A stretch of 64,000 nucleotides of DNA from Candidatus Woesearchaeota archaeon (GTDB lineage: Archaea; Nanobdellota; Nanobdellia; Woesearchaeales; UBA9989): assembly GCA_013329045.1 (NCBI GenBank), contig DUKZ01000020.1, forward strand, positions 33,489-97,488, written 5' to 3'. Below, piece after piece: positions 15,201 through 34,235 of the stretch; the stretch's first letter is position 1; each line of letters starts with the position of its first letter. The translations under genes were made by a program, and so were the position numbers. The notes beneath the pieces are model-generated. The model was not told the DNA's origin. It ran no database searches and saw only the letters and a program-made list of their open reading frames with translations.

Positions 15201-15948
15201 TGCATTGTGAATCTGTAACATCAGTGTCTATATGGATTTGGTAATTTCCCGGTGTGGCAGGCGTCCAGACAAACCGGACTGTTTCTGTGCTGTCCATGAA
15301 GATGTTAACATCACGAGAATCTGTATAGATAACCTGCCCTGTTCCAAGCTGCTCTACTTGAAGGGTAATCCTGGTCATCGCTGAATAGTACTCATCCTTC
15401 AATGCCAGCAGTGCAGGATCATCTGGAGGAAGCCAGTTTGGAAAGCCATTATTGAGCCTATAGAAAGGAGAGTTTGCATCCGCAGCGATGTTTGCGGGTA
15501 CATCAATGACCAATGGTTCATTTGCATAGACAGAGTTTTCTGTCACGAGATTGCCGATCTCTGCCCTGCAGAAATCGCCTTTGAAGAATTCTACTTTTTG
15601 GGAAAAATCTCCAGTGGTAGGCGTTGTTGTGTACGTTTGCTTGAGCGGCATGTATCCTTGCTTATGATAATAGAGCCCATACCACCACGAACCGGAATCC
15701 GGCCGGGCTATGTTGAAGACTGATACTGCATCACCTGAATTTCCTTGAAGATAACCATAGATAGAATTGCAGGGTTGGTCTTGGCATTGCGCCAGCAGAA
15801 CATCAACACCCGTCACAAGATTCTGGGTTACCTTATCAGCAAACGTTACTGTATATCGCGACGTTCCCGCCGCTGAAACTGGAATGATTGATGTCACCAA
15901 AAAGATGGTAACAAACAAGGTTAGGAATTGTTTAGAGTTCATGATCAT
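9271..15948 (-). CDS. Giant (2225 aa) secreted adhesin-like protein with Asp-rich Cys-bounded DNDGDG repeats (thrombospondin-type-3-like Ca-binding), cadherin-like modules and He_PIG-type Ig-like modules
   Basis: Signal peptide MIMNSKQFLTLFVTIFLVTSIIPVSAAG. About 20 repeats of C-[ST]-D-G-[IL]-D-N-D-G-D-G-x-I-D-Y-P-A-D-x-G-C. VVPVNDNPNF cadherin-type motifs. A C-terminal HITYSLVAAPLGMTIDSDSGIVLWVPT motif. GGGGGAAC lies 3 nt upstream of the ATG. Confidence 0.75.
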   Translation of the reverse strand: MIMNSKQFLTLFVTIFLVTSIIPVSAAGTSRYTVTFADKVTQNLVTGVDVLLAQCQDQPCNSIYGYLQGNSGDAVSVFNIARPDSGSWWYGLYYHKQGYMPLKQTYTTTPTTGDFSQKVEFFKGDFCRAEIGNLVTENSVYANEPLVIDVPANIAADANSPFYRLNNGFPNWLPPDDPALLALKDEYYSAMTRITLQVEQLGTGQVIYTDSRDVNIFMDSTETVRFVWTPATPGNYQIHIDTDVTDSQCNQNNKVADNAYENLVVLEARPTNECYTIINNLVASNAQPQVGQTVTFSYNRISNYADNNHNLFPVQTRVTETGIVTGTQVFSQQETLAANPDAVTPRPASFTYIPTVPGDHFVTVEGFPTDPRCNGLTITPMSSIISIHVQGPSTPQCSDFIDNDGDGEIDYPADFGCTSPEDNNETNNGPTQCSDGIDNDGDGFIDQDDPDCTGPDDPSEFPDPASVVVLPNPATITVGQTQQFTATGGTSYAWSISQGTAFCTVNQNGLLTGIAAGNCVVQARDIPTNGVGSAQVFVIPVPNQPPVIAGLPDQTLNEDTSRDNAFNLNDFSSDPDNVDSQLNYVLAVTTSNQCGVVVDSGKNVDLTPQNNFNGFCDVTVTVRDPSGLSSSDVFRVIVVPVNDNPNFDPLANPIPDQTWTQGTSRNNAFDLDNFFVDVDGDVLTYTASAADNPNITVVIGSGNVVSFTQAASFFGVERVVFTARDGLGGSAQSNSVVLTVVRQVFQCNDGIDNDGDTRIDYPADPGCSSPIDDDESDGPIICYVNNDCGSISSSNSCNVNNGFVTTTTTPTCRNGGTDSSFCENVVSTTIDQCSFICSPVQGCDYTQCSDSQDNDQDGAVDFPNDFSCSSYFDDDELLPRAQCQDSIDNDGDLFVDYPDDPGCFSLQDNDEGPFNPGRTQCSDGLDNDGDTLIDYPADPGCTSTADDDESNTFDLLIDNGFLQNSPITINQNAIVQFNTHKIPANAGIPTNLPVRVTLDSNVITSIPTLPFPSASFMTSVNLGHLSAGTHFFAIQVDPNNVYHETNEANNLFTFQFQVAAIPQCSDGLDNDNDGAIDYPADFGCTSPRDDDETNNGNTQCSDGIDNDADIAIDQDDPQCDDRNDNDENGPPTISLADVTLQDIQGLVVLHDLNAESFDPDDTELSFAITSSGIPECHFEINAQEELLFTATIPQGQSITCGVTVQVRDPHGATGQDSMAVHLTQTAAQCSDNIDNDGDGWIDYPADWGCTSPTDDDETNNGPTQCTDGLDNDGDGLIDRNDPGCTTPGDDDENEAPIITNLPDRILNEDTQLLNTFNLNDFASDHEDPDSTLIYTISVSNSNFCGVSIDALDNIDITPAANFHGVCDATVIVHDSQGLTGSDIFRVSVVPVNDNPNFDPNANPIPAQTWNQGTSRNNAFDLDNYFSDVDGDVLTYTASAADNPNITVVIGSGNVVSFNQPASFHGVEHVVFTANDGRGGSAQSNSVTLTVTQTTFACSDGIDNDGDGWIDYPADWGCTSPTDDDETNNGPTQCTDGLDNDGDGLIDRNDPLCTDPGDDSEYGQCNDHVDNDADGATDYPADFSCSHVNDDDELLPRAQCQDSIDNDGDLFVDSPDDPGCFSLQDNDEGPFNPGRTQCSDTLDNDNDGVIDMQDPGCSSPMDDDESDGTTQCQDGIDNDGDGWIDYPADWGCTSRIDNDETNNGPTQCTDGLDNDGDGLIDRNDPGCTTPGDDDEDEPAVWQTLTDKSVPEDSPSGTLVYGGLKLLCTDPDDTEAVNVVSAHTHYSLNFTGNDLVINSLEHDFTGTENVQLSCNNISAQFSLTITPVNDGPVWSTLPDQTLTEDTVRNDAFSLLNYVTDADDPDASLTFNLVSVTHNNLCGIILDPSKNIDITPVSNFNGVCEATVRATDSTGLFSEASFVVTITPVADAPVVSDIPDQFLDEDQEVSLDLNSYVTDEDNSDDEIAWTTQRLSGTGEISITIDSQNIAHIRGAQDFNGAEAFRFIATDPDGLSDYDDATITIQSIADGARFISTPIGVAFVGEVYMYDANAIDPDGGHITYSLVAAPLGMTIDSDSGIVLWVPTESQIGQNPVTIRAMSENMVTDQEYAIRTRYSFDDTYSQRKVEVGSIVFIEGDTVDAGESVPVAISFGNEGYIKMNDVHVTMVIPELGVYRKIGPFDVSSGKVVTRTLSLNVPEYAPPGVYDVRFVISDDFIRRVKHRELIVS
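11538..12093. repeat. Intragenic long repeat copy 1 (cadherin-like module duplication within the giant adhesin gene)
   Basis: A 77-nt block is identical at 11581-11657 and 13839-13915, with flanking high similarity. The encoded peptides are about 190 aa and nearly identical. Confidence 0.8.
13728..14298. repeat. Intragenic long repeat copy 2
   Basis: Partner of 11538..12093. Several shorter DNDGDG-unit nucleotide repeats recur at about 10790, 11305 and 12110. Confidence 0.8.
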
Positions 15949-15960: not shown

Positions 15961-18570
15961 TTATTCGATCGTTGAGCCTCCAATGCCGCCGCTTCCTCCT
16001 CCAGATCCACCGCCGCCAATGCCTCCAGTGCCAACTGATGGGATGATGGGTCCTGGTCCGCCATTGCCGCCAATTCCTGGCGGCCCCTGTGGTCCAGCGG
16101 GTCCTTGTGGTCCAGAACCTCCATTAGCGCCAGGTGGGCCTTGTTGTCCCTGAGGGCCTCTCTCTGGTCCATCAAAAAGATCGATGAGCTGTGTCACTGT
16201 TGAGATGAATGAAGCGATACCATACAACCCATCCAGGAAGACACCAAATGAGGCAGGTCCAACAACCCTGCTTCTCCTGAGAGGAGAAAATCCTCTAGCT
16301 TCAAAATTAAGGTCTGCTGCCCCATCAAAGCCAAGATTATGCCATTCTCCACCAGAAAGACGTTCTTGGCCAGTTAAGATAAGATCGCCATAATGTCCTT
16401 CTCCAACTCCATACGATGTTTGAACAGGATCCTTGAATACAATGAGACCAAGAAGAGGTATACCAGAAAAAGGCCGAGACTCATGGAGGTGGTTCATTGC
16501 AGGCATGACAGGACCCCACATTTGGTCATCGAGACCAACATAGGGGAATAGTCCATGTGTATTTTGAAATCGAACAGCACCAATACGATAATGTTCAGGT
16601 TCATTGATGGTTGATAGGAGTTGTTGTCTTGTCGCTTCTGGCAGTGCATCACCAGCAGCAAAATCAATGTTGCCTATGCCATTCCATGCATCTCGCACCC
16701 AATTTATTTGATCTCTGCTGCTCACTCTATCAGGTCGCTGACGGATTCTTTGTGCCCTAAACCGATGGAAATTAGCATTCACCTGATAATCGCTTCCTTT
16801 AAGTGCTAAGCGTTTATCAACAAGTGCTAATACTAATGTATCATACGGTTTGTTCAGGACTAACGTATCCAGGTCGACCGGTGGATTATTCACCCAATCA
16901 GCCCTTCTGTTCTCTTCTGTCGTGATGGGTTGAACATAGGTAGTGAGGAATTTATCTTCCTCACCTGGTAAGATGATTGGTACCATCCCGGTATACGGGT
17001 CAGTACTCATAGGAATACGAGCTTGTTCGCCATGTCGGACAGCAACAGCAAGAAGCAACGGGCTAACCCTATCACGTAAAAGATATCCTGTGGGCCGCTG
17101 TTCTAGCAGGGTTATTCGCAACTCATGATCCGCAATAGTCTCGCCATGTTCACTCACAGCGCTTTCAAGACTGCTCACCCTCCTTTCTAGTCTTGTGTAT
17201 AAGCTGCCAAGCTGCTCTATTTGCCCCGCTACCCAACCCCTGAAAGTTGGATATCCCTCAAGGATCGTATGCCATTCATTCCACCATACCCTGATGGACC
17301 CGCAAAGGTCATCTAAGACTGGTGGTTCAATATGAGAGGTTTCTCTTTGTTCTTCAAGGCCTCTCCCGACAGCATATAGGGTTTCCAGCATTGTCCTAAT
17401 CTCGGTTGTCCTGACAACAAAGTAAGGGGTGTTAGTATCCGGATTAGTGGTAGTGCGGCCCCATTCATACACAGCAGCGAGGGCTTCAAGGCTCCTGCCT
17501 GTCAGTCGGACAAGTCCTGGCCTTCGTTCTGTTGTCTCATCGAGGTATATCTCTGCCGGGAAGATGATATCTCCTGATTGCCCGTGACCAAACGCGTATG
17601 ATCCATGGCCTCTGGCTCTTCCGTTCGCAAAGACATAATAGGTTCCATCATCATTAACCCTGAACGTGACAGTTTGGTTTCTTGTGACATAATCTACAAG
17701 ACCTGCCTGGTCATTGTCAAACATATGGGTTAATTCCCTAACGACAGAATCACCCGCTCCATGGGTAGTAACATAATCTGCAATTGCATCGCTCCAGGCT
17801 TGCCCTGGTTCTGATCGTAAAGTCAGGCTTCTTCCTTGTCCAATGCTTTGGAAGCCTTCAAACTCGTTTGTAGTGACGGTGGATCGTGGATCCCTAGCTT
17901 CTGTTCGAACAACGCTCGCATGACTATACCCCATTTGGCCGAATTCAAAATAACGGAGCATAGAGGCAACTAATGTCTGTTGAACATCATCGACAGTGGT
18001 CATATCATTTGGAACGCCGGTGATATGGAGCGATGCGCGGGTGCTGGCAGTGTTCAGCCATACTTCCATCTCTCTGACCATTCCAGGCAGGTCGATTCTT
18101 TCTTCTTGGTAGTCATACCATATCTGCGCTCTTTTTGAGTCATCTCGGATATCAAAGAACACATAGCGCTCTCCTGCATCGGTAAGATGCATATTCCGGG
18201 GGACTGTTCCAGCCCATAATTGAAGATCAGGGGTCTCCATTCCATAGTGTGAGAGGAGGGATGGAAGGGCAATTTGCTGTCCTTGGCCTCCGTCAGCTGC
18301 AGGTGCGTCTGCTGCCGGTGCTGTTGTTGCAGCAGAGACTGGTGCTGCCATGCCGGTAAAGAGAGTGAGTGCGCCAAGGGCAAGAATTGCTGAATTGGGG
18401 ATAGTTCTTCCATGATAAACTTCAGGATTTCCTTCATGTCCTCCAAGGCGAAGGCTCAGCCCTTCTAACGTTTCTAAACCGCCTGTTTTTTGCAGAGCTC
18501 GAGAAGCATAATCTGAAAGGTGGTCAAGCCCATAGTGTTTCCCACCAAGTCCCCGTGATTGATCTGTCAT
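15961..18570 (-). CDS. Secreted protein with a C-terminal collagen-like G-X-Y repeat tail
   Basis: The ORF is open to 18624. The probable start is the ATG at 18570 (MTDQSRG...), with AAGGGGGTACC upstream. A hydrophobic signal-like segment AILALGALTLFTGMAAPVSA. The C-terminus is GPQGQQGPPGANGGSGPQGPAGPQGPPGIGGNGGPGP, then Gly-rich. Only 12 nt separate it from the downstream giant gene. Confidence 0.6.
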   Translation of the reverse strand: MTDQSRGLGGKHYGLDHLSDYASRALQKTGGLETLEGLSLRLGGHEGNPEVYHGRTIPNSAILALGALTLFTGMAAPVSAATTAPAADAPAADGGQGQQIALPSLLSHYGMETPDLQLWAGTVPRNMHLTDAGERYVFFDIRDDSKRAQIWYDYQEERIDLPGMVREMEVWLNTASTRASLHITGVPNDMTTVDDVQQTLVASMLRYFEFGQMGYSHASVVRTEARDPRSTVTTNEFEGFQSIGQGRSLTLRSEPGQAWSDAIADYVTTHGAGDSVVRELTHMFDNDQAGLVDYVTRNQTVTFRVNDDGTYYVFANGRARGHGSYAFGHGQSGDIIFPAEIYLDETTERRPGLVRLTGRSLEALAAVYEWGRTTTNPDTNTPYFVVRTTEIRTMLETLYAVGRGLEEQRETSHIEPPVLDDLCGSIRVWWNEWHTILEGYPTFRGWVAGQIEQLGSLYTRLERRVSSLESAVSEHGETIADHELRITLLEQRPTGYLLRDRVSPLLLAVAVRHGEQARIPMSTDPYTGMVPIILPGEEDKFLTTYVQPITTEENRRADWVNNPPVDLDTLVLNKPYDTLVLALVDKRLALKGSDYQVNANFHRFRAQRIRQRPDRVSSRDQINWVRDAWNGIGNIDFAAGDALPEATRQQLLSTINEPEHYRIGAVRFQNTHGLFPYVGLDDQMWGPVMPAMNHLHESRPFSGIPLLGLIVFKDPVQTSYGVGEGHYGDLILTGQERLSGGEWHNLGFDGAADLNFEARGFSPLRRSRVVGPASFGVFLDGLYGIASFISTVTQLIDLFDGPERGPQGQQGPPGANGGSGPQGPAGPQGPPGIGGNGGPGPIIPSVGTGGIGGGGSGGGSGGIGGSTIE

Positions 18571-18776
18571 TCTAAGGTACCCCCTTATCGATCTCTCACC
18601 CCATTTTAGAATGCCCCCAGGCAAACTTAATAGGCAAAAAACATACTCATTATTTAAAGCTTGTGGTTTATTACTATTATAAAATAGTAAATATATAATA
18701 GAATAATATGGTAACGACCATCAAGTGACAAGAATCAAAGGTAATGTTTTAATAAAGGAATAATTAGCCTTCTCCC

Positions 18777-19859
18777 ATGATAGCGATAATTGGTGCTGGG
18801 CCAGTCGGGAATTATGTGGCATATCTTTTGGCATCAAATAATATCGCTGTTGAGGTGTTCGAAGAACACGGTGAAGTGGGGATCCCCTGGCAGTGCACAG
18901 GGATCACGACGGCCAGCTTCGAAAAAATTGTCGAGCTTCCACCAAAGCTGATTATCAATCGGCTAAGAAAGCTCAAGATTGTTTCAAGACGTCATTCTGT
19001 GCGAATGCCAATCGAAGAGATCGTTCTAGACCGCGTCGGGCTGGATAAGCATTGGTATGAAGAAGCAAAAAAGAGTGGGGCAAAGTACCATCTCAATTGC
19101 CGTTTCGAAAGGAAAGAAGGAAAGAGCGTCATAGTGCTAGACAAGAAGGCAGGAAAAGAAATGATGATACAGCCGGACCTGCTCATAGGTGCTGATGGGC
19201 CAAGCTCAAAAGTATCTGCGCTGATCAATCCAAAGCCGGCAAGGACATTCTTTGGGTATCAGGTGAGGATCAAGGGGGAATATGATGCGGAATGTTTTGA
19301 GACTCATTTCATTGATGATCATTTGTTTTACTGGGTTGTCCCAGAATCAGCAACAGTTGCCAGGATCGGCACTTTTTGCACCAGTTTTGACAGCAGAGCA
19401 TGGGAAGCATTTTTGCAGAGGAGATGTGGAAAAAAGGCAAAAGGGCTAATCATCAACGCTCAGCCAGGAAAGATCCCTTGGTATTCGGGAGAAAAGATTA
19501 TAGAGAAGGATGGCATCAGGATTGTTGGGGATGCTGCTGGGCAGGTGAAAGCAACTACAGGAGGAGGCCTAGTCCCAGGGTTTTTGGCAGCAAAGGCGCT
19601 GGCACGATCAATCATAAAAAATACTTCTTATGCAAAGGAAGTGGGGGAAGTGCACCGGCAGCTTTCAGTGAGTTTATATCTCCGGAATATCCTTTCTCGC
19701 TGTTCAGTTGAGGATTATGATGCGCTGGTGAGATATCTTGACCAGGGAAGGATCAAGAGGCTGCTCTACAAGATTGATAGGGATCATCCAATCCAGCTCG
19801 CCTGGAGGGCAGCAGTGCTCGAGCCAAGGCTTCTTCGTTTCTTGCCCAAACTTTTATAA
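18777..19859 (+). CDS. FAD-dependent oxidoreductase, geranylgeranyl reductase family
   Basis: N-terminal IAIIGAGPVGNYVAYLL Rossmann motif. About 360 aa, matching the GGR-family length and pattern. Confidence 0.55.
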   Translation: MIAIIGAGPVGNYVAYLLASNNIAVEVFEEHGEVGIPWQCTGITTASFEKIVELPPKLIINRLRKLKIVSRRHSVRMPIEEIVLDRVGLDKHWYEEAKKSGAKYHLNCRFERKEGKSVIVLDKKAGKEMMIQPDLLIGADGPSSKVSALINPKPARTFFGYQVRIKGEYDAECFETHFIDDHLFYWVVPESATVARIGTFCTSFDSRAWEAFLQRRCGKKAKGLIINAQPGKIPWYSGEKIIEKDGIRIVGDAAGQVKATTGGGLVPGFLAAKALARSIIKNTSYAKEVGEVHRQLSVSLYLRNILSRCSVEDYDALVRYLDQGRIKRLLYKIDRDHPIQLAWRAAVLEPRLLRFLPKLL

Positions 19860-19874: not shown

Positions 19875-22800
19875 TTGGGCGTGGGTTGTTTCATGGGAGA
19901 AGATGATATTGAGATTGATTTTGGCAAGATCACGAAGTTCTTTAAGAGAGACAAGAAAAAGGCAGAGCAAAAAGAAGCGGCTGATGATCAGGTGCAGGGG
20001 AGTTCTGCTGAGGAAACACCAAAGAGTGGGTCTCCTGAAATAAAAGAGGGAATAAAAGAGGGCGCAAATAAGAGTGCAAAGGGCGATCATGACGATGGAA
20101 AGAATGAAGCAGGCAGCGCTCAGCAATCAGGAGAAGATGCTCAGAAGGATAAAGAGTCTGCAGTAAAAAAGAAACAAAATGGTGCGCACGAGACCAAAGA
20201 TGATAAGGAAGAACAAGATGGTGATGAGAAAGGACAAAGTGATGACGAGATTGCAATTGACTTTTCAAAGATAACAGGCATATTCAGAAAGAAAGAAGCA
20301 AGAGAGAAGGAAAAATCAGAGGCGCAGAAAAAGCAGAGGGTGAGCGAGGAACGAAAAAAGAAACCCGAGTCTGCTGATCTTGAAAAGAAACAAAATGAAA
20401 AGGAACAGGACAGCGAGGATGCTGAGGAAGAGATTTCATTTGACTTTTCAAAGGTAAAAGGGTTGTTCAAGGCAAAAGGCAGAAAGGAAGACGCTGAAGA
20501 AAAAGTTGATGTTCAACCAGTTGTTCATTTTGTCAAGAAGAACAGCAAAGTGCTGATTATGCTCATATTGCTCCTCATCCCGCTATATATAGGGATGGAA
20601 GTGAGGACTTATCCAAACCACCTGCCAATAGCAGACGATATGGCAAAGGAGGTTGTCCAAAGATCGATCCAGGCGCAGATCATAGATCAGGTCAACAACC
20701 AGTATCCAAACCTTCCAGCTGCGCAAAGGCAAAAGATTCTCGAGAAGGAATACCAAAGGGTCGTGAAAGAGAACCAGGCAGGAATTGATCAGCAGGTTCA
20801 GCTGTATGGTAATTATATTCGTGCCCAGATGAAAGTGGGAGAGGAAGATTCACAGACATATCTTCTCGCCATTGATCCGTATCATTGGGCGCGGTATGCG
20901 CGGAACATTGCTGATCATGGATATCCTGGCGATGATCTGCGCGAGGGGCAGAGTTATGATACCTTGATGCACGCACCCTTGGGGAGGTATGTTTCTGGTG
21001 ACAGGTTCCACGCATATTTCGAGGCATACCTGTATAAGTTTGTCCGTCTCTTCGATAAGGATGCTGATTTTCAGGGAGTCATCTTCACCACCCCTATTAT
21101 TATTATAGTGCTCGGGATCATCCCGACCTTCTTCTTGGCAAGGATGATTGCAGGGGACATTGCAGGGTTTGTTGCAGCTCTTATCATTGCAGTCCATCCT
21201 GCGGTAATGTCAAGAACGGTTGGAGGGTTTGCGGATACGGATCCATACCAGATCCTTTTTCCGTTGCTCATCTCATTATTATTCATGTGGGCATATGAGC
21301 TCAAGAAGGTGCAGGGAAAGATCCTGCTCGTGACATTCGCCGGTCTGCTTGTCGGATTATATGCCTCTGCATGGAGGGGCTATTGGCACATCCTTGATTT
21401 TTTAATGGTCGTTGCCATCACACAGCTCTCATTTTATCTCCTTGTACACTGGTCGGAGGTAAAGAAAGGTCTCTTTTCAAAGGAGGCAGTAACCCATGGA
21501 GCGATCATCCTCATCACGTTCATCTTGGCATCTGGCATGTTTATAGGTGTTTTTAGTGAGCATGCTCCGCTCGATATCTTCAGGGAGGCAACAGGTCAGC
21601 CGGTAAAGTTCTCAACAGCAAAGGATGTTGGGATCACCTCAATCTGGCCAAACGTCCTAACAACCGTCGCAGAGCAGAATGAAGCAAGCAGGTCAGAGAT
21701 CATTAGTACGGTCGGTTTTGGCGGGAAGAGCGCCGGAAAATTCCTTTTCTTTTTATGCTTTTTTGGCATTGCTGTTGCGGTCACGGAGAGGTCATGGAAA
21801 AGGAAAAAGGATATGGTTTTCCTTGGTGCAAGTGCCATCTATTATCTGGTGATAATCAGCATGAATGATCGCATCGAAAACACACTCACGCTGTTTTTCC
21901 TCCTTGCAGTTCCATTGATCATCAAGGCATATTTGGCCATTGACGAGAAGGATGAGCATATCAGGATGAGATATGCAGCGCTTATCTTTGTCTGGATTAT
22001 TGCTACTATGTATGCCAGCCAAAAAGGCATCAGGTTTACTTTGATGATGGTTCCAGCTCTCGCAATTGGGCTTGGTGTTGCTGTTGCATTCCTCTTTGAA
22101 CTCATTGACCGGTATGCATCAAGGGAGATGAAGGTTGAAAAGTATCTGATTACCGGGTTCTTGTTCTTGCTTCTTTTCCTCGCATTGTATAAAGGGCCAG
22201 TTGCTGCAGGAAAGGAAGTGGCAAAGAACCAGATTCCAGGGATGAATGATGCGTGGTGGTCTGCACTAGAAAGGATTGATGGTGCAGCCAGCCAGGATGC
22301 GATCATCACCTCCTGGTGGGATTATGGCCATTGGTTTAAGTTTGTTGCAAAGCGTGGAGTGACCTTTGATGGGGCATCACAGAACCTCGAGCCCGCCCAT
22401 TGGGTCGGATTGGTGCTGCTTACAGAAAATGAGACAGAAGCGAAGGATATCTTGAGGTTCTTGACATGCGGCAACTTTTACACGCATGAGTTTCTGCTCA
22501 GGTCAAACTGGTCCAGTGACCCCTATGACCAGGTGATGCTGCTCAAGGAGATCATCCCCCAGAGCCGGGAGGAAGCACGCCAAACCTTGATTAAAAAAGG
22601 GTTCCCGGAGGGCAGCATCACTCAGCTTCTTGATTACACCCATTGTGATCCTCCAGAGGACTATTTTATCGCATCAGATGATATGGTGTCAAAATCTGGG
22701 GTGTGGGCTCATTTTGGCATCTGGGATTTCAAAAGGGCATATATCTATAATACCTTGATAAAGCAGGAATATGCAAGCAAGGAGAAGGCAATAGCATGGC

Positions 22801-23492
22801 TCGGGGAGCGTTTTGATATGCCACCAGCTGATGCTGAGAAGATGTATAATGATGTGCGCACGCTTGCAAAGGCTGACGCAAACTCCTGGATTTCCCCCTG
22901 GCCAAGCTATGTGCAGGGAGTGCAACAATGTAATCAGGGAGGGGATATTCTCCAGTGCCCGCAGGGGATCATGTTCAATCTCACCTCAGAGGAGGCATAC
23001 ATTATTAATCCTGACAAGAGTGTTACTCATCCAAAAGCTGTTGCTTTCGCGGCAACGAATGATACCATAGTCAAGAAATATTCTGAGAACATCCATTCAC
23101 CAGAGTTTGGTATTGCGATCATACCTGCTGACGGAAAATATTATGCTGTGCTAATGGACCCCCGATTGACAGGATCATTGTTCACCAGGATGTTTTTCTT
23201 TCAGGGACACGGCCTTCGCTACTTTGATGCTTTTAGCGTTGAGCGAAATCAGGTTCTTGGCACCCAGGTGTATACATACAAGGTTGATTGGAACGGGACA
23301 GATCCAAACATTGCCCCACTGTTCCCAGAGGATAGCTCAATAGAAGAGAACTCGCGTATTGATGCATCAAAAGCAAGCAATGAAACGGCTGGATTGGGTA
23401 ATGACACTAGGATAATAGACAGTGATAAAGGGAATGAATCTAAAGGAAGCAGAAATAGTTCAGCCCGCTCAAAGAACATTTCCAGTAAATAG
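19875..23492 (+). CDS. aglB: Oligosaccharyltransferase AglB/STT3 family with an unusual roughly 230-aa charged repeat-containing N-terminal extension
   Basis: WWDYGHWFKF (WWDYG motif). About 13 TM helices followed by a large C-terminal soluble domain. The N-terminus holds three copies of I-[EAS]-[IF]-DF-[GS]-K-[IV]-[TK]-x-[FIL]-F-[KR], spaced by KE-rich low-complexity sequence. Confidence 0.85.
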   Translation: MGVGCFMGEDDIEIDFGKITKFFKRDKKKAEQKEAADDQVQGSSAEETPKSGSPEIKEGIKEGANKSAKGDHDDGKNEAGSAQQSGEDAQKDKESAVKKKQNGAHETKDDKEEQDGDEKGQSDDEIAIDFSKITGIFRKKEAREKEKSEAQKKQRVSEERKKKPESADLEKKQNEKEQDSEDAEEEISFDFSKVKGLFKAKGRKEDAEEKVDVQPVVHFVKKNSKVLIMLILLLIPLYIGMEVRTYPNHLPIADDMAKEVVQRSIQAQIIDQVNNQYPNLPAAQRQKILEKEYQRVVKENQAGIDQQVQLYGNYIRAQMKVGEEDSQTYLLAIDPYHWARYARNIADHGYPGDDLREGQSYDTLMHAPLGRYVSGDRFHAYFEAYLYKFVRLFDKDADFQGVIFTTPIIIIVLGIIPTFFLARMIAGDIAGFVAALIIAVHPAVMSRTVGGFADTDPYQILFPLLISLLFMWAYELKKVQGKILLVTFAGLLVGLYASAWRGYWHILDFLMVVAITQLSFYLLVHWSEVKKGLFSKEAVTHGAIILITFILASGMFIGVFSEHAPLDIFREATGQPVKFSTAKDVGITSIWPNVLTTVAEQNEASRSEIISTVGFGGKSAGKFLFFLCFFGIAVAVTERSWKRKKDMVFLGASAIYYLVIISMNDRIENTLTLFFLLAVPLIIKAYLAIDEKDEHIRMRYAALIFVWIIATMYASQKGIRFTLMMVPALAIGLGVAVAFLFELIDRYASREMKVEKYLITGFLFLLLFLALYKGPVAAGKEVAKNQIPGMNDAWWSALERIDGAASQDAIITSWWDYGHWFKFVAKRGVTFDGASQNLEPAHWVGLVLLTENETEAKDILRFLTCGNFYTHEFLLRSNWSSDPYDQVMLLKEIIPQSREEARQTLIKKGFPEGSITQLLDYTHCDPPEDYFIASDDMVSKSGVWAHFGIWDFKRAYIYNTLIKQEYASKEKAIAWLGERFDMPPADAEKMYNDVRTLAKADANSWISPWPSYVQGVQQCNQGGDILQCPQGIMFNLTSEEAYIINPDKSVTHPKAVAFAATNDTIVKKYSENIHSPEFGIAIIPADGKYYAVLMDPRLTGSLFTRMFFFQGHGLRYFDAFSVERNQVLGTQVYTYKVDWNGTDPNIAPLFPEDSSIEENSRIDASKASNETAGLGNDTRIIDSDKGNESKGSRNSSARSKNISSK

Positions 23493-24323: not shown

Positions 24324-24656
24324 ATGGTACTTGGCATTCAGGTTGCAGGCGTCTGTTTCGCCTTGTTCATGCTCTACATCACGTACACGAGCTCAAAGAA
24401 AAAGCAGTTTACCGCAAAGGAATGGGTGTTTTGGAGCCTGATTTGGGTCATGATCGGTCTCATCTCCCTATTCCCAGAACTGCTCGACAGTGTTGTAAAG
24501 CGCTTTCATTTTGCGCGGGCGCTCGATGTCATCATCATTGGAGGATTCATTTTTCTTCTGGGTATCATGTTCTACCAGTATACGGTTATTAGAAAGTGCC
24601 AGAGGAGCATTGAGGAATTGGTGAGGAAGGTTGCGCTGGAAAAGGAGCAGCGATGA
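24324..24656 (+). CDS. DUF2304 small membrane protein (typical partner of GtrB-like GT2)
   Basis: 110 aa with three hydrophobic helices. ATGA overlap with the next gene. Confidence 0.55.
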   Translation: MVLGIQVAGVCFALFMLYITYTSSKKKQFTAKEWVFWSLIWVMIGLISLFPELLDSVVKRFHFARALDVIIIGGFIFLLGIMFYQYTVIRKCQRSIEELVRKVALEKEQR

Positions 24657-25780
24657 CAAGAGTTGGGACGATTAAGGCCATAGACAAGGTTCTTGGCACG
24701 CTCGGTGTTGTTCTTTTGGGATTGAAAAAAAAGAGTCCGCTGCCAAAGTCATTTTCTTCTATCTTATGCATCCAGTTGTGGGGGATGGGAGAGTCGATCT
24801 TGACGTTGCCTGCAATAATCGCAGTGAAGAAAGCAAATCCAAAGGCGACTATTTCAGTGCTGGCAACTGCAAGGAACAAGGATGTGTTTTTTGGTCAAAA
24901 GGATATTGACAACGTCATTGAGCTTGGCATGTCTCCAGGGATGATTCTTTCATTTATGAGGAAAAACAAGGATATGTTTGACCTTGTCATCGACTTTGAG
25001 GAGTACCTCAATATTTCGGCAATCATCGCGGCGAGGGTTGGAAAGCATACAATCGGGTTTTCAGGGCAGCCAAGATCCAGGGTATACGATGAGTCCATCC
25101 CATACAATGATGCACAGCATGTGGTGGTGACATGCATGGACCTGGCAAGGCTCGCTGGTGCAAAGGGGGTGCCAACAGAATTGCCAACGCTTGGTGCTGA
25201 TCTGTCTGATAAGAAGAGGGTTGATATATTCCTTAGAGAGAGTGGTGTTGGGAAACAGCCTTTTGTCGGCTTTGGAACAAGTGTTGCTGAATCATCAAAA
25301 TCTAGGATGTGGCCAAAAGAGAACTTTGCAAGACTTGCAGATTGGATGATAGGGAAAGAAAATGTCCATGTAGTCTTTGTTGGAACAAGAGGGGAGGTGG
25401 ACGCTATCCAGGAGATCATTGAGCTGATGCATCATAAAGATAAGGCAGTAAATGGGGCAGGAAGGCTGTCAATGAGGCAGCTGTTTGATTTTGTCGGTAG
25501 ATGCAGGATGTTTATTGGAAATGACTCTGGGCCAATGCATGTCGCAGCAGCAATGAGAGTTCCTACGATCGGTTTGTTTGGATGCAATCTCCCGGAAAGG
25601 TTTGGGCCATATGGAAAGAATGCTATGGGCATCAGAAAAGTCAAAGAAAGAAAGCCCTGCATCAACGTCCATCAGGGCGAGGTGAGGGAATGCCAGTTCG
25701 AGCAGACATGCGTCTCATTTATCTGGGTAGAAGATGTGCAGGAAGTGTGTGAGAGATTTTTTCGGAGGGAAAGAAAATAA
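24653..25780 (+). CDS. GT9 family glycosyltransferase (ADP-heptose:acceptor heptosyltransferase-like)
   Basis: GNDSGPMHVAAAMRVPTIGLFG C-terminal signature. N-terminal LWGMGESILTLPAI motif. Confidence 0.75.
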   Translation: MTRVGTIKAIDKVLGTLGVVLLGLKKKSPLPKSFSSILCIQLWGMGESILTLPAIIAVKKANPKATISVLATARNKDVFFGQKDIDNVIELGMSPGMILSFMRKNKDMFDLVIDFEEYLNISAIIAARVGKHTIGFSGQPRSRVYDESIPYNDAQHVVVTCMDLARLAGAKGVPTELPTLGADLSDKKRVDIFLRESGVGKQPFVGFGTSVAESSKSRMWPKENFARLADWMIGKENVHVVFVGTRGEVDAIQEIIELMHHKDKAVNGAGRLSMRQLFDFVGRCRMFIGNDSGPMHVAAAMRVPTIGLFGCNLPERFGPYGKNAMGIRKVKERKPCINVHQGEVRECQFEQTCVSFIWVEDVQEVCERFFRRERK

Positions 25781-26787
25781 TGGGAACAAGAAGAGAATTC
25801 CTCAGGGCTGCTGGAGGGATTGCTGCTCTCGCCCTCACGCATGGGTGCTCTGATCCAGTGTATAAGGGAAGGATTGCCTACCTGCTCCGCCAGCAAGGTC
25901 AGAATCTTGAATTATCTCTTGAGGTCGTTGATCTCGCAGCAGCAGGGACAAGATCATTAAGATCATTATATACAAGCCATATTGGTGATCTGGCTGTTAA
26001 TGGCAATGATCTGTACATAGCAGCATTCCCGGAGGAAATTCTCAAGAGGGTGAGCGTTGGCACAGGAGGGGTAGTTGATCTTCAAAGGGATCAACGATTC
26101 GCATATCGCTTCCCTTCCCCTTTAGGTGATGGCTTCTGTGCAGCATCTCTTCGTGAGAGCGGGAATGGTGGCGCTCATTTTCATATTGGTATTGTTGATG
26201 ACCAGCAAACAAGAGTGATCGTGGAGGATATTGCTCAGACGCAATACGCCGCAACCAGAAGAGGGCCAGATGTTGCTGTCGCTTACGCTAAACAAAGAGA
26301 GTCAATGTTGGAGATATGGAAAGGGATATGGACTCCTGAAAATGGCCAATTGAGAAACGATCAGCAGGTAGGTGATATTCCCATGGCGCCGCCAGATCCA
26401 TTCAAGCCCCAGCAATTGTTTCTTCGATTTGTGGGGGATGCATTAACAGTCTCTGATTCATCGATTGGATGTTTGTATTATGAGAAGGATGGATATCTCA
26501 GCCAGGCAGTCCTTGCCCAAGATGCCAGGATGATCAAACCCGGATCATACCTCTATGTCGATCAGGATGATCGCCGGGCAAGCCTTGTTTTGGATGATGG
26601 CTCGCCAAGAGAGATTTGGAGAACTGGTGGGATGATAAGGATTAGTGATATTCAGGACAGCGTAGCCCTTCTCACAAGAAGAGACGTGTATGGGACAGCG
26701 ATGATCATTGTGGATGTGTATTCTCAGGAGCGAATGATTGTTCCGCAAAAGAAGGGAATGCCGTTCATGCCATTGTTCCTGGATTAA
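25780..26787 (+). CDS. Secreted protein with a twin-arginine (Tat) signal and a Cys shortly after the h-region
   Basis: MGTRREFLRAAGGIAALALTHGCSDP. Unknown function; Gly/Asp-rich. Confidence 0.55.
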   Translation: MGTRREFLRAAGGIAALALTHGCSDPVYKGRIAYLLRQQGQNLELSLEVVDLAAAGTRSLRSLYTSHIGDLAVNGNDLYIAAFPEEILKRVSVGTGGVVDLQRDQRFAYRFPSPLGDGFCAASLRESGNGGAHFHIGIVDDQQTRVIVEDIAQTQYAATRRGPDVAVAYAKQRESMLEIWKGIWTPENGQLRNDQQVGDIPMAPPDPFKPQQLFLRFVGDALTVSDSSIGCLYYEKDGYLSQAVLAQDARMIKPGSYLYVDQDDRRASLVLDDGSPREIWRTGGMIRISDIQDSVALLTRRDVYGTAMIIVDVYSQERMIVPQKKGMPFMPLFLD

Positions 26788-27539
26788 GCGGCATGCACAT
26801 ATTCTCCGTGGGTAAAGAAGCCGACGAGCTGTTTGATCTTCGCAATCTTTGGAAAGAGGTGGTTTTCTAGGCTGGTTGTGTGTTCATCGAAGAGTGCAAA
26901 TACTTCTGGCTTGAGGAGATAGATGCCAGCATTCCCGACATGGGATGATATATGTTTTGGTTTTTCCTGGAAGTCGATGATAAGGTCTCCGTCAAGGATA
27001 GCATTGCCGAACCGTGAAGGTTCATTGATGCTCATGAGTCCCATCGTAGCCAGCTTGTCCTGCTGCATATGCTTTTTTTCCATCTGGTGGAGGTCAAAGT
27101 GGTTATAGACATCCCCGCTCATCACGATAAAATCCTGGTTGGACAGCTTGTCCTTGACAGCGAGCAATGCTTGTGCATTCCCTTTGACTGGCGCTTCGAT
27201 GATTTCTGCTGGAAGAATGCTTTGCTGGACTTCCGAATAGAGTTTCACGCTCTCTTTAGTATGCTGGGTCACGATGTATGCCTGCTTTATGCCATGAGAG
27301 TAAAAGAAATGCAATTGCTCAAGAATGAGGGATCGCTTGTGGAGTGATGAGAGGGAAGTGTGCTGGTGTTCACCTTTGAGCAGGAGCACAACTGTCTTGA
27401 TGGACTGCTCCTGGAGCCCTTTTTGGAGAAAGTATTCTATTGCCTGGCTTCTGCTCCTGATGATGGAGCCATCAACATGAGAATCTATCTGTCGGAGGAG
27501 TGGTTCATCGAGAGAGATGGCAATTTTAGCTTTGGTCAT
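26784..27539 (-). CDS. Ribbon-helix-helix (CopG/NikR-like) domain fused to a degenerate sugar-phosphate nucleotidyltransferase-like domain; putative regulator
   Basis: The ATG at 27539 gives MTKAKIAISLDEPLLRQIDSHV (RHH beta-strand plus helix pattern). The C-terminal GDVY...FGNAILDGDLIIDFQEKPK...NAGIYLLKPEVF matches the NTP_transferase core. The N-terminal GxGTRL nucleotide loop is replaced by KGEHQHTSLSS. Confidence 0.55.
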   Translation of the reverse strand: MTKAKIAISLDEPLLRQIDSHVDGSIIRSRSQAIEYFLQKGLQEQSIKTVVLLLKGEHQHTSLSSLHKRSLILEQLHFFYSHGIKQAYIVTQHTKESVKLYSEVQQSILPAEIIEAPVKGNAQALLAVKDKLSNQDFIVMSGDVYNHFDLHQMEKKHMQQDKLATMGLMSINEPSRFGNAILDGDLIIDFQEKPKHISSHVGNAGIYLLKPEVFALFDEHTTSLENHLFPKIAKIKQLVGFFTHGEYVHAA

Positions 27540-27544
27540 ACTAA

Positions 27545-27561
27545 GTATGAAATAGTATGAA
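27545..27561. promoter_or_regulatory. Direct repeat GTATGAA-ATA-GTATGAA adjacent to the regulator start
   Basis: Seen directly. It shares the half-site with the palindrome at 27649. Confidence 0.35.
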
Positions 27562-27648
27562 CTATTTAAACATTGCGTAATTATCCTCATGAAAGAGAAA
27601 GACTTTTGAGATGATAGGGAAAACCTTATAAAGAAGCGGTAAATAAAA

Positions 27649-27678
27649 GTATGAAATATTCATACCTACAGGTGTAGG
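27649..27678. promoter_or_regulatory. Two perfect palindromes (GTATGAA-ATA-TTCATAC and CCTACA-GG-TGTAGG) 11-40 nt upstream of the gmhA ATG; candidate operator
   Basis: Seen directly. They lie between the divergent RHH gene and the heptose operon. A GGAGGGG SD follows. Confidence 0.4.
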
Positions 27679-27688
27679 AGGGGTTCAC

Positions 27689-28303
27689 ATGGAAAACGTG
27701 ATTACGGAAAAAGAGATAGATGAGAAGATCCATCACTGGTTCTTGGAGAGCGCGCGGGTAAAAGAAGAGCTCGCAAGGACGCAGAGGAAGAACATGGCAA
27801 AGATTGCAGCTATCGTTATTGATGCGATCAGGAACGGCAATACCATCTTTGCCTGCGGCAATGGCGGATCGATGTGTGATGCACTGCATTTGACCGAGGA
27901 GCTCACCGGAAGATACAAGAAGAACAGAAAACCTCTCCCGGGACTCTGCCTTGGTGCAAATCAGGGGAGTGTCAGCTGCATCGGGAATGATTTTGGGTAT
28001 GATGATATCTTTTGCCGTGAGGTGCAGGCATTTGGAAAGAAAGGGGATGTTCTCATAGGGTTTAGTACATCAGGAAATTCGCTGAATGTGATAAAAGCGA
28101 TGGGATGTGCAAAAGCGCAGGGGTTAAAAACAATCGCATTGCTGGGAAAAGATGGGGGCAAGATGAAAGGCATGTGCGATGTTGAGATTATCGTTCCCAG
28201 TAATGAATCATCCAGGATCCAGGAGAGCCATATGCTTATCTATCATTCACTAATAGAGCTCGTTGATGATACATTATTTCCGGAGGGTGGAAAACATGAG
28301 TAA
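27689..28303 (+). CDS. gmhA: Sedoheptulose-7-phosphate isomerase (SIS domain)
   Basis: IFACGNGGSMCDALHLTEELTGRY...IGNDFGYDDIF...GDVLIGFSTSGNS...LLGKDGGKM is near-identical in pattern to bacterial GmhA. Confidence 0.85.
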   Translation: MENVITEKEIDEKIHHWFLESARVKEELARTQRKNMAKIAAIVIDAIRNGNTIFACGNGGSMCDALHLTEELTGRYKKNRKPLPGLCLGANQGSVSCIGNDFGYDDIFCREVQAFGKKGDVLIGFSTSGNSLNVIKAMGCAKAQGLKTIALLGKDGGKMKGMCDVEIIVPSNESSRIQESHMLIYHSLIELVDDTLFPEGGKHE

Positions 28304-30373: not shown

Positions 30374-30412
30374 GCATCCAGGAGAACATTTATTCGGCGA
30401 GAAAAGGAGGGA

Positions 30413-32253: not shown

Positions 32254-32255
32254 GC

Positions 32256-32756: not shown

Positions 32757-32780
32757 AAGAAGAAGTGAGTTGAAAGAAGG

Positions 32781-34075: not shown

Positions 34076-34110
34076 TAGTGTAAAGTGGAGTTGCGCTGGA
34101 AAAGGTTTGA

Positions 34111-34192
34111 AGCAACAACAATGGCACAAATCGCGTAGGCTCTACGCGAAGGTTTTCAAAGAAAACCGGTTTGTCGCCAGTATTGTTGTTGC
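34111..34192. repeat. Double-hairpin palindromic element, copy B
   Basis: Outer 11-bp perfect stem GCAACAACAAT/ATTGTTGTTGC, extended imperfectly. Inner hairpins CGCGTAG-gct-CTACGCG and GGTTTT-caaag-AAAACC. Confidence 0.6.
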
Positions 34193-34235
34193 CCAATGAA
34201 ATGAAAGGTAGAGTGAGTCAATAATTAAAGAGGGC

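What the first reader, a model, noticed from the sequence alone, without database searches (positions are those of the whole stretch)
19875..20580. AglB/STT3 with a roughly 230-aa charged N-terminal extension containing three copies of an I-x-I-DF-S-K-I-T-G-I-F-[KR] motif
STT3/AglB proteins normally begin with their first TM helix. Here the ORF, which has no in-frame stop from 19875, encodes three amphipathic 15-aa repeats (at about 19902, 20247, 20463) separated by KE/D-rich low-complexity linkers before the first TM at about 20540. This may be a cytoplasmic regulatory or tethering module, or a mis-called start. If it is real it is an unusual OST architecture.
Basis: seen in the sequence. Interest (0 to 1): 0.55.

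Follow-up and report, generated by a model that had tools for sequence, protein, structure and literature searches.

The report
Repeat-bearing cytoplasmic tail on archaeal oligosaccharyltransferase
The N-glycosylation enzyme (AglB) of this groundwater Woesearchaeote really carries a roughly 220-residue disordered cytoplasmic tail with three to four copies of a short helix-forming motif; the tail is conserved across this DPANN lineage, almost exclusive to AglB, and I found no description of it in the literature I could search.

Summary
ORF 19893-23492 (+) encodes an intact STT3/AglB oligosaccharyltransferase. Its first 219 residues precede TM1, are 49% charged, and are predicted to be disordered. 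They contain three canonical copies of a 20-residue motif ([DE]3-I-x-I-D-F-S-K-I-K-n-F-F-K-K-K) and a fourth, degenerate copy that abuts TM1.

This is not a mis-called start. 113 of 120 orthologs (about 38% identical) carry 1-6 copies, and the first copy usually starts at residue 8-12. A back-translated motif pattern scanned over 185,579 species genomes gave 47 in-frame hits, all in AglB N-termini of Woesearchaeota/Nanoarchaeia. A profile search of 1.84 billion proteins found only 138 matches, which were AglBs or their fragments apart from about nine exceptions, among them one SecF.

AlphaFold2 on the aligned motif predicts an Asp-capped amphipathic helix. Its core, FSKIKNFF, closely matches the B. 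subtilis MinD membrane-targeting helix (MAKIKSFF). Distant AglB relatives keep only the juxtamembrane copy, so the array probably grew by duplication of an interfacial helix.

Best reading (about 0.4): multivalent helices that bind the membrane surface and pin a disordered tail around the enzyme. Main rival (about 0.35): a docking array for a cytosolic partner. The function has not been tested. I rate it a new variant of a known enzyme.

The parts
19893..23492 (+). aglB/STT3 gene, 1199 aa (alternative TTG start at 19875 adds 6 aa)
   Evidence: ORF. Pfam STT3 126 bits against a cut-off of 24.5. AF2 core pLDDT >90. Foldseek matches PglB, AglB and STT3. The identical protein P0001 occurs in a groundwater metagenome.
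19893..20549 (+). Cytoplasmic, disordered, polyampholyte N-terminal extension (res 1-219)
   Evidence: pLDDT <50 for res 1-185 and 193-204. 49% charged, net charge -10. No Pfam or NCBIfam family. Conserved as an architecture in 113 of 120 orthologs.
19899..19958 (+). Motif copy 1: EDD-IEIDFGKITKFF-KRDKK (res 3-22)
   Evidence: 20.8 bits, E 6.5e-6 with the ortholog-only HMM. D9, K12 and F17 are at least 90% conserved. AF2 helix at res 13-18.
19959..20240 (+). K/E/D-rich spacer 1 (res 23-116), not conserved in sequence
   Evidence: The consensus is 'x' throughout the ortholog alignment. Spacer lengths vary widely between orthologs.
20241..20297 (+). Motif copy 2: DDE-IAIDFSKITGIF-RKKE (res 117-135)
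   Evidence: 32.6 bits, E 1.3e-9. D123 is at least 90% conserved. AF2 on the motif alignment puts the helix start at the residue after the Asp, with pLDDT about 91.
20298..20423 (+). K/E-rich spacer 2 (res 136-177)
   Evidence: Short DNA repeats shared with spacer 1 (D2-D4) point to an old segmental duplication.
20424..20477 (+). Motif copy 3: EEE-ISFDFSKVKGLF-KAK (res 178-195)
   Evidence: 30.2 bits, E 7.3e-9. D184, K187 and K189 are at least 90% conserved. AF2 helix at res 186-192. 81% nucleotide identity to copy 2 over 47 nt.
20496..20549 (+). Degenerate juxtamembrane copy: EEK-VDVQPVVHFVKKNSK (res 202-219), directly before TM1
   Evidence: It aligns with the ortholog consensus EExSxDxKKxxxFFxK that precedes TM1. 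D206 is at least 90% conserved. AF2 helix at res 208-216 with rising pLDDT.
20550..20612 (+). TM1 (res 220-240)
   Evidence: Hydropathy. AF2 helix at res 218-238, pLDDT 87-96.
20613..23492 (+). Catalytic OST body: EL1 with a lineage-specific helical insertion (res about 246-312, invariant QYPNLP), invariant D328 (DPYHW), D448/D450, E594 (TVAEQN), WWDYG at 808-812, and the external C-terminal domain
   Evidence: Invariant columns in the 98-sequence alignment, motif positions, fold match.
18777..19859 (+). Geranylgeranyl-reductase-family flavoprotein gene 33 nt upstream; conserved operon partner of aglB
   Evidence: TIGR02032, 128 bits (below the curated 158.8-bit cut-off; a family-level resemblance only). 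A homolog lies directly upstream on the same strand in 35 of 35 loci that hold the upstream DNA.

Best explanation
SHOWN. The first about 219 residues of this Woesearchaeal AglB are a translated, lineage-conserved tail, predicted to be disordered. The tail carries three canonical copies and one TM1-abutting degenerate copy of a 20-residue motif. The motif consists of an acidic triplet, I-x-I, an almost invariant Asp, a two-to-four-turn Lys/Phe helix and a basic tail. The motif array is almost exclusive to AglB. The rest of the enzyme has all the sequence hallmarks of an oligosaccharyltransferase.

INFERRED from established OST topology. The tail is cytoplasmic.

INFERRED mechanism. The Asp caps the helix, and the flanking Ile residues form a hydrophobic staple. 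Each copy folds into a short amphipathic helix that lies in the interface of the cytoplasmic leaflet, in the way MinD/FtsA-type membrane-targeting sequences do. The ancestral copy is the juxtamembrane helix just before TM1. Duplication of that helix, with K/E-rich spacers between copies, produced a multivalent and individually weak membrane-surface tether. This tether would keep a long polyampholyte tail looped on the membrane around the enzyme. It would then set the enzyme's surroundings (lateral organisation, local anionic or polyprenyl-phosphate lipids, access of cytosolic factors) rather than take part in catalysis.
For: The extension is real. 113 of 120 orthologs at about 38% identity carry 1-6 copies, and the first usually sits at res 8-12. 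The ORFs are continuous from motif to catalytic core in genome loci. Motifs are conserved while linkers are not.

The motif is specific to AglB. 47 of 47 in-frame pattern hits in 185,579 species genomes lie in AglB N-termini. Only 138 of 1.84e9 representative proteins match the profile. No other ORF matches in 442 kb of related DNA. The other GT-C membrane enzymes in the window have no extension.

Helix. AF2 on 78 aligned motif instances gives pLDDT 81, with the helix starting exactly after the Asp. The full-length model shows helical segments in the same half of each copy.

Membrane-helix analogy. The core FSKIKNFF matches the experimentally used B. subtilis MinD targeting helix KGMMAKIKSFFG, that is MAKIKSFF, at 5 of 8 identical positions and 3 conservative ones (bioRxiv 10.1101/2024.06.11.598461). 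The hydrophobic moment is 0.5-0.76, against 0.41-0.61 for MinD and FtsA sequences.

Interfacial origin. The last copy ends at TM1 in the window and in the orthologs. In a second AglB clade only 21% identical to this one, near relatives have 1-2 copies, and more distant ones keep only the copy that abuts TM1.
Against: No experiment or direct computation shows membrane binding. Residue-level conservation is stronger than is usual for membrane-targeting helices (my own knowledge): Asp 98%, Lys 96%, and a near-obligatory acidic triplet. That pattern suits a stereospecific protein contact, and acidic flanks should be repelled by anionic archaeal lipids. The helical hydrophobic moment does not exceed that of shuffled sequences (p 0.07-0.4), although the same holds for the validated controls. 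An integral 13-TM enzyme has no obvious need for extra membrane anchors. Exclusivity to AglB is not explained by generic lipid binding, only by descent. In the full-length AF2 model the tail has pLDDT below 50 and docks nowhere.
Confidence: 0.4

Rival explanations
1. The copies are short linear motifs in a disordered tail that dock a conserved cytosolic or peripheral protein, or several molecules of it, onto the oligosaccharyltransferase. Candidates are the co-operonic geranylgeranyl-reductase-family prenyl reductase, glycan-assembly glycosyltransferases, the ribosome/SecYEG/SecDF translocon, or division proteins. The result would be a glycosylation 'metabolon', or localisation of the enzyme.
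For: The motif has near-invariant polar residues (D 98%, K 96%), an obligatory acidic flank and a fixed register. The first copy is more conserved between proteins (63%) than different copies are within one protein (54.5%), so individual copies have been maintained for a long time. 'Stickers in disordered spacers' is the usual architecture of a docking array. The motif follows AglB across two very divergent AglB clades. A GG-reductase-family gene is the immediate upstream neighbour in 35 of 35 loci. One SecF, a translocon accessory protein, carries a canonical copy in the same position.
Against: No partner was identified. No conserved small cytosolic gene other than the reductase and the glycosyltransferases accompanies aglB. 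The Asp is equally well explained as a helix N-cap. The juxtamembrane copy cannot reach far from the bilayer. The SecF case is a single 3.1-kb contig, and 120 other SecF homologs lack the motif.
Confidence: 0.35
2. The copies bind each other or the cytoplasmic face of AglB, in cis or in trans. The acidic N-flank would pair with the basic C-flank. This would cluster the enzyme or auto-regulate it.
For: Each motif is a charge dipole (acidic triplet, then basic tail) with a hydrophobic stripe. The modal copy number is 3-4. The juxtamembrane copy must contact the enzyme's cytoplasmic surface region.
Against: AF2 predicts no packing of the copies on each other or on the core. The tail has pLDDT below 50 even with a 98-sequence alignment. 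Spacer lengths vary from about 15 to more than 100 residues without constraint.
Confidence: 0.1
3. The extension is an annotation artefact: the real start is the Met near TM1 and the upstream in-frame sequence is untranslated. Alternatively it is neutral low-complexity expansion without function.
For: The window offers no direct proteomic or transcript evidence. K/E-rich N-terminal tails of variable length also occur on SecF in this lineage, so part of the tail may be compositional drift.
Against: The motifs are conserved at the protein level with synonymous and conservative DNA change. They are found in frame in 47 of 47 genome hits. They begin 8-12 residues after a Met in most orthologs. The upstream gene ends 33 nt before the ATG. 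Apparent 'short' orthologs are truncated calls.
Confidence: 0.03

Closest known systems
AglB / STT3 / PglB oligosaccharyltransferases (Pfam PF02516; solved structures such as A. fulgidus AglB 3WAJ/7E9S, C. lari PglB 3RCE/6GXC, yeast and human STT3)
   Same: It has the same GT-C fold and C-terminal domain (Foldseek E 2e-18 to 1e-11). It has the STT3 Pfam domain. The WWDYG motif, an EL1 Asp, D-x-D and an EL5 Glu are invariant. It sits in a glycosylation gene cluster.
   Different: It has a 219-residue disordered cytoplasmic N-terminal tail with repeated motifs, which has no counterpart in the matched solved structures. It has a helical insertion of about 70-90 residues in EL1, and a total length of 1199 aa. 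It scores far below the cut-offs of the curated archaeal and bacterial subfamilies (TIGR04154: 61 against 450 bits; PglB: 44 against 1300 bits).
MinD/FtsA-type membrane-targeting sequences (short C-terminal amphipathic helices; B. subtilis MinD KGMMAKIKSFFG)
   Same: Both are short Lys/Phe/Ile amphipathic helices. The 8-residue core is nearly the same (FSKIKNFF against MAKIKSFF). The hydrophobic moment is comparable. In both, a single copy would bind weakly and avidity comes from multiple copies (MinD dimer or tandem 2xAH construct).
   Different: Here the helix is repeated 3-6 times inside an N-terminal disordered tail of an integral membrane enzyme, not placed at the C-terminus of a soluble ATPase. 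It has an invariant Asp cap and an acidic triplet. There is no homology, only resemblance, and membrane binding is untested.
FtsY A-domain and dehydrin K-segments (disordered, highly charged regions with embedded lipid-binding amphipathic helices) - comparison from my own knowledge
   Same: The architecture is shared: a long charged disordered region with short basic amphipathic segments that fold on anionic membranes.
   Different: There is no sequence relationship. Pfam finds no dehydrin or FtsY family in the tail. The organisms and the host proteins are different.
Eukaryotic OST-translocon coupling through the accessory subunits DC2/KCP2 (PMC5674889, abstract seen)
   Same: The concept is shared: non-catalytic cytosolic or membrane elements decide where the oligosaccharyltransferase sits relative to the secretion machinery.
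   Different: In eukaryotes these are separate subunits. Here it is a fused repeat tail, with no sequence similarity and no evidence of translocon contact beyond one motif-bearing SecF.

Membership tests
STT3/AglB/PglB oligosaccharyltransferase (PF02516, GT-C) | STT3 domain above Pfam's gathering score | tested here: met
   126.1 bits against a cut-off of 24.5, res 319-763.
STT3/AglB/PglB oligosaccharyltransferase (PF02516, GT-C) | Multi-TM GT-C fold plus external C-terminal domain, as in solved OSTs | tested here: met
   AF2 core pLDDT >90, pTM 0.78. The top 19 Foldseek PDB hits are all PglB, AglB or STT3.
STT3/AglB/PglB oligosaccharyltransferase (PF02516, GT-C) | WWDYG motif in the C-terminal domain | tested here: met
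   WWDYG at res 808-812. W808, W809, D810 and G812 are invariant in 98 orthologs.
STT3/AglB/PglB oligosaccharyltransferase (PF02516, GT-C) | Conserved acidic residues in EL1/EL2 and the EL5 Glu (metal and acceptor binding) | tested here: met
   D328 (DPYHW), D448/D450 (GFADTD) and E594 (TVAEQN) are invariant columns. Assigning them to the catalytic roles is by analogy.
STT3/AglB/PglB oligosaccharyltransferase (PF02516, GT-C) | Transfer of lipid-linked glycan to Asn in N-x-S/T | not testable with these tools
   This needs an enzyme assay or complementation.
TIGR04154 archaeo_STT3 (archaeosortase-A-associated AglB subfamily) | Score above the curated cut-off | tested here: not met
   60.9 bits against a cut-off of 450. 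The protein belongs to a different AglB clade.
MinD/FtsA-type membrane-targeting sequence | Short amphipathic helix with a hydrophobic face flanked by basic residues | tested here: met
   AF2 helix from the residue after the Asp, pLDDT about 91. Hydrophobic moment 0.5-0.76 against 0.41-0.61 for controls.
MinD/FtsA-type membrane-targeting sequence | Terminal position on an otherwise soluble protein, which it brings to the membrane | tested here: not met
   The motif is internal and repeated in the N-terminal tail of a protein with at least 10 hydropathy-predicted TM segments and a GT-C fold (13 TM in solved OSTs, from my own knowledge).
MinD/FtsA-type membrane-targeting sequence | Sufficient for membrane or liposome binding | not testable with these tools
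   This needs peptide-liposome or GFP-fusion assays.
PCNA-interacting PIP box (Q-x-x-[ILM]-x-x-[FY]-[FY]) - considered because of I-K-N-F-F plus the basic flank | Gln at position 1 and two aromatic residues at positions 7-8 | tested here: not met
   Position 1 is Phe (80%), never a conserved Gln. Position 7 is F in 46% and I in 33%. This leaves only a non-canonical resemblance, and there is no biological rationale.
Dehydrin K-segment / LEA | Match to the dehydrin family profile | tested here: not met
   No Pfam family other than the STT3 families at E<=0.01. No NCBIfam hit in res 1-216.

The most novel reading that the evidence does not exclude
The repeat array is a multivalent docking platform. 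It would recruit a cytosolic or peripheral partner to the oligosaccharyltransferase. Candidates are the co-operonic GG-reductase-family polyprenol reductase, glycan-assembly transferases, or the ribosome/Sec translocon (one SecF carries the same motif). That would give a single-subunit archaeal OST a built-in equivalent of the eukaryotic accessory subunits, and would define a new peptide-recognition system specific to Woesearchaeota/Nanoarchaeia.
Probability: 0.3. Interest if true: 0.75.

Novelty: new variant of a known kind. Interest (0 to 1): 0.55.

Why it matters
Characterised oligosaccharyltransferases are described as starting essentially at TM1. How single-subunit archaeal enzymes are positioned relative to the translocon, the lipid-carrier cycle or the division site is largely unknown. 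Here a major uncultured DPANN lineage has fixed a conserved, multi-copy, 20-residue cytoplasmic motif on its only N-glycosylation enzyme. The motif's residue conservation rivals that of the catalytic motifs, so it is clearly under selection. The motif is short, well defined and easy to synthesise or fuse to reporters, which makes the question testable without culturing the organism. If it binds lipid, it is a new example of duplication of a juxtamembrane helix into a multivalent membrane tether. If it binds a protein, it reveals a new OST accessory interaction. It also serves as a sharp sequence marker for Woesearchaeal AglB in metagenomes.

Tried and rejected
1. Mis-called start: rejected on ortholog evidence.

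2. A general Woesearchaeal membrane-protein signal: rejected. No other ORF carries the motif in the 64-kb window or in 442 kb of related loci. The other GT-C enzymes in the window start at TM1. 120 SecF homologs lack the canonical motif, although they have K/E-rich tails and a loosely similar juxtamembrane 'IKNFYDKQYKK'.

3. A known domain in the tail: none in Pfam or NCBIfam. A PDB profile search gave only chance hits (caspase-3 helix DLKKITNFF, E 0.1).

4. A DNA-level or RNA-level element: rejected. The copies are 62-81% identical in DNA, and they differ largely at synonymous or conservative sites. Promoter and terminator scans were at background.

5. Whole-motif helical amphipathicity: the first test, on the 16-19-mers, was negative, with periodicity near 155-165 degrees. 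This led to splitting the motif into an extended half and a helical half, which AF2 then confirmed.

6. PIP box, LIR, SIM, FFxxBB and FtsZ-C-terminal-peptide resemblances, all recalled from memory: no defining feature could be met or tested. They are kept only as leads.

It was replaced by the genome pattern scan and the representative-library profile search.

8. The viral contig scan returned nothing.

9. Motif fused to ferredoxin (P0216): it sits on a 519-bp contig at 0.94x coverage, so it is not trusted.

10. No literature match for the motif strings or for an AglB N-terminal extension.
Full report
WHAT IS THERE.

The region lies at the 5' end of a 3.6-kb ORF (19875/19893-23492, + strand). 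The product has a Pfam STT3 domain (126 bits). Its AlphaFold2 model has a high-confidence core (pLDDT >90 from about residue 220 to 1150, pTM 0.78). The best PDB matches of that model are bacterial PglB, archaeal AglB and eukaryotic STT3 (E 2e-18 to 1e-9).

The hallmark residues are present and invariant among 98 orthologs: WWDYG at 808-812, D328, D448/D450 and E594. So this is an apparently functional oligosaccharyltransferase.

It sits in a large cell-surface and glycosylation island. That island contains GT2 and GT9 transferases, a heptose-nucleotide pathway, other GT-C enzymes and giant Ig-domain surface proteins. An identical protein occurs on a groundwater-metagenome contig. All close homologs come from Woesearchaeota / 'Nanoarchaeota' MAGs.

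CHECK OF THE OBSERVATION.

The three repeats exist, at nt 19899-19958, 20241-20297 and 20424-20477.

An HMM built only from ortholog instances scores the three copies at 20.8, 32.6 and 30.2 bits. The next best of the 524 ORFs in all six frames of the window scores 6.3 bits.

A fourth, degenerate copy (EEKVDVQPVVHFVKKNSK, res 202-219) abuts TM1 (res 220-240). Its Asp206 is at least 90% conserved, like D9, D123 and D184 of the other copies.

The first 216 residues are 49% charged, with net charge -10. The full-length model predicts them to be disordered (pLDDT <50), with short helices only in the second half of each copy.

The ATG at 19893 is the likelier start. Ortholog N-termini read M-(acidic)5-10-motif, and the upstream gene ends 33 nt earlier.

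IS IT REAL?

Yes. Among the 120 best homologs (about 38% identical), 113 have 1-6 copies upstream of TM1. The commonest number is 3, and the first copy usually starts at residue 8-12. The exceptions are N-terminally truncated gene calls or a regex miss.

From 345 instances the motif is [DE][DE][DE]-I-S-I-D(98%)-F-S-K(96%)-I-K-N-[FI]-F(84%)-K-K-K-K. The linkers between copies are not conserved at all.

In DNA the window's copies are 62-81% identical, and they differ largely at synonymous or conservative sites. Selection therefore acts on the peptide.

The first copy is more similar between proteins (63%) than different copies are within one protein (54.5%). The duplications are therefore old, and the copies have been kept individually.

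HOW SPECIFIC IS IT?

I back-translated I-D-F-x-K-I-K-N-x-F-K and scanned one genome from each of 185,579 bacterial and archaeal species. This gave 54 loci. Forty-seven hits are in frame, and every one lies in the N-terminus of an AglB ORF, or of a fragment of one cut by a contig end. All 47 come from Woesearchaeota/Nanoarchaeia MAGs. The other 7 are out-of-context matches in ORFs of 5-69 codons in bacteria and a Methanobrevibacter.

One of the 47 (L018) is a 948-aa AglB that is only 21% identical to the window's enzyme. The module therefore accompanies AglB across very divergent clades.

A 30-column motif profile searched against 1.84 billion representative proteins found only 138 matches at E<=0.001. 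Fifty-six contain an AglB core. Most of the rest are short N-terminal fragments with the same K/E-rich context.

The exceptions are few:
- a SecF with a canonical copy plus a juxtamembrane variant, on one 3.1-kb contig;
- a ferredoxin on an unreliable 519-bp contig;
- three short proteins in which the motif precedes an unidentified soluble sequence;
- unrelated repeat proteins that match part of the profile.

No other protein matches in the window or in 442 kb of related loci. The four other GT-C-type membrane enzymes in the window begin directly with TM1.

120 Woesearchaeal SecF homologs lack the canonical motif. They do, however, have K/E-rich N-terminal tails and a loosely similar juxtamembrane 'IKNFYDKQYKK'. 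Charged tails are therefore common in this lineage, while the motif array is specific to AglB.

STRUCTURE OF THE MOTIF.

AlphaFold2 run on 78 aligned natural instances gives mean pLDDT 81. The helix begins exactly at the residue after the invariant Asp, and the acidic/I-x-I part remains non-helical.

This fits a classical helix start: Asp as the N-cap, with the Ile before it and the Ile four residues after it forming a hydrophobic staple. That reading comes from established helix-capping rules and explains much of the residue-level conservation.

The helical half places F, I, F and F on one face, flanked by Lys. Its hydrophobic moment (0.5-0.76, HeliQuest scale) is in the range of validated membrane-targeting helices (0.41-0.61). 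For such short peptides neither the motif nor the controls exceed shuffles significantly.

The 8-residue core FSKIKNFF matches MAKIKSFF at five identical and three conservative positions. MAKIKSFF is the B. subtilis MinD targeting helix used experimentally as KGMMAKIKSFFG.

ORIGIN.

In the window and in the orthologs the last copy ends at TM1. In the second AglB clade, near relatives have one free copy plus one that abuts TM1 (for example FEIDFSGIKNFF ... FEIDFKGIKNWFVKNKK-TM1). More distant members keep only the TM1-abutting copy (MADDDIEIDLQKFVSFVKDNKK-TM1), or only its basic helix.

The simplest history is that an interfacial helix preceding TM1 was duplicated toward the N-terminus, with charged spacers inserted between copies.

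MECHANISM.

The tail is on the side of TM1 opposite EL1, which carries the invariant D328. By the topology of all solved oligosaccharyltransferases it is therefore cytoplasmic (inference).

My best-supported reading (about 0.4) is a multivalent membrane-surface tether. Each copy would be an Asp-capped amphipathic helix that partitions into the cytoplasmic leaflet, as MinD/FtsA sequences do. Each would bind weakly, and together they would bind strongly. They would hold a polyampholyte tail in loops on the membrane around the enzyme.

The main rival (about 0.35) is a docking array for a conserved partner. It is favoured by the near-invariant Asp and Lys, by the acidic triplet, and by the restriction to AglB. 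The immediately upstream, co-oriented GG-reductase-family gene is an obvious candidate, since it is the neighbour in 35 of 35 loci that hold the upstream DNA. Such a reductase saturates dolichol phosphate in Haloferax (Naparstek et al. 2012, as cited in PMC10821996). The single motif-bearing SecF hints at the translocon.

Self-association (about 0.1) is not supported by AF2. An artefact or neutral expansion (about 0.03) is excluded by the conservation. None of the functional readings was tested.

COMPARISON AND NOVELTY.

The enzyme is a member of the STT3/AglB family. It belongs to neither the archaeosortase-associated AglB subfamily nor PglB.

The tail matches no Pfam, NCBIfam or PDB entry. 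Full-text searches for the motif strings, for AglB with DPANN or Woesearchaeota, and for an AglB N-terminal extension found no description of it.

It works most like a MinD-type targeting helix embedded in an FtsY-A-domain-like charged tail. It fails the positional criterion of that class, and there is no homology.

I rate it a new variant of a known kind: a known enzyme with an undescribed, lineage-wide accessory module. Interest is moderate to high for specialists in archaeal glycosylation and DPANN cell biology, mainly because the motif is sharply defined and can be tested without cultivation.

Noticed in passing
window 18777-19859 (+) and loci L001-L054: A geranylgeranyl-reductase-family flavoprotein gene lies immediately upstream of aglB on the same strand in 35 of 35 related loci that hold the upstream DNA (gaps mostly 3-260 nt; 33 nt in the window). 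This looks like a conserved prenyl-reductase/OST operon, perhaps for dolichol saturation.
   Followed up: partly
window 20640-20870 (AglB res about 246-312): This AglB clade has a helical insertion of about 70-90 residues in external loop EL1, between TM1 and the invariant D328. It contains an invariant Q-Y-P-N-L-P (P272, L274, P275). AF2 models it as three confident helices. The second AglB clade (L018 type) lacks the insertion.
   Followed up: no
window 23340-23489 (AglB res about 1150-1199): The external C-terminal tail is predicted to be disordered (pLDDT <50). It carries five N-x-S/T sequons within about 45 residues (NET, NDT, NES, NSS, NIS), so the enzyme might glycosylate its own tail.
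   Followed up: no
orthologs P0090, P0110, P0087, P0109, P0117 (parvulin type) and P0053, P0077, P0102, P0115 (FKBP type): Some orthologous AglBs carry a peptidyl-prolyl isomerase domain. In the three examined it is at the external C-terminus (res about 1025-1190), which would make them OST-foldase fusions. The window's protein has none.
   Followed up: partly
window 24653-36138 and 55489-58930: The gene set downstream of aglB suggests a heptose-containing glycan fed from sedoheptulose-7-phosphate. It includes three GT9 'heptosyltransferase' genes, two SIS (GmhA-like) genes, a PfkB-cytidylyltransferase fusion (HldE-like) and an NTP-transferase. It also includes a full non-oxidative pentose-phosphate set: split transketolase, RpiB, Rpe, transaldolase, GlpX and DeoC.
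   Followed up: no
window 15961-18624 (-): An 887-aa protein with no Pfam or NCBIfam match ends in a collagen-like GPxG / poly-Gly-Ser stretch (GPQGQQGPPGANGGSGPQGPAGPQGPPG...GGGSGGGSGG). It lies next to a 2225-aa surface protein with Big_9 and Cadherin_5 domains (9271-15948, -).
   Followed up: no
P0241 / locus L057 (JGI 3300009034, 3.1-kb contig): One SecF carries a canonical motif (EEKDEISIDFSKIKNFFKKKKK) in a K/E-rich N-terminal tail, plus a juxtamembrane variant. In the gene call it is fused to an upstream MTS-type methyltransferase. 120 other Woesearchaeal SecF homologs lack the motif but have K/E-rich tails of 20-150 aa and a conserved 'IKNFYDKQYKK-LLIIP' before TM1.
   Followed up: partly
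P0240 (318 aa, representative library): A PIN_8-domain protein ends in eight head-to-tail copies of an 11-residue unit, SAIDFGKIAGL / SAIDFDKITGM. This resembles the I-D-F-x-K-I core but has no spacers or basic tail. The organism is unknown.
   Followed up: no
loci L002, L017, L019-L021, L023, L024, L027-L029, L035, L040-L042, L045, L046, L049, L054: MAGs titled 'uncultured Methanosarcinales archaeon' (binchicken assemblies), and one labelled Gammaproteobacteria (L005), carry typical Woesearchaeal-type AglB with the motif array. Their taxonomic labels look unreliable.
   Followed up: no
locus L023, ORF upstream of aglB (728 aa, cut by the locus end): In this locus the ORF that clusters with the GG-reductase family is twice the normal length and contains a LAGLIDADG-like stretch (LLGYYVAEGS). 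This may be an intein or a homing-endonuclease insertion.
   Followed up: no
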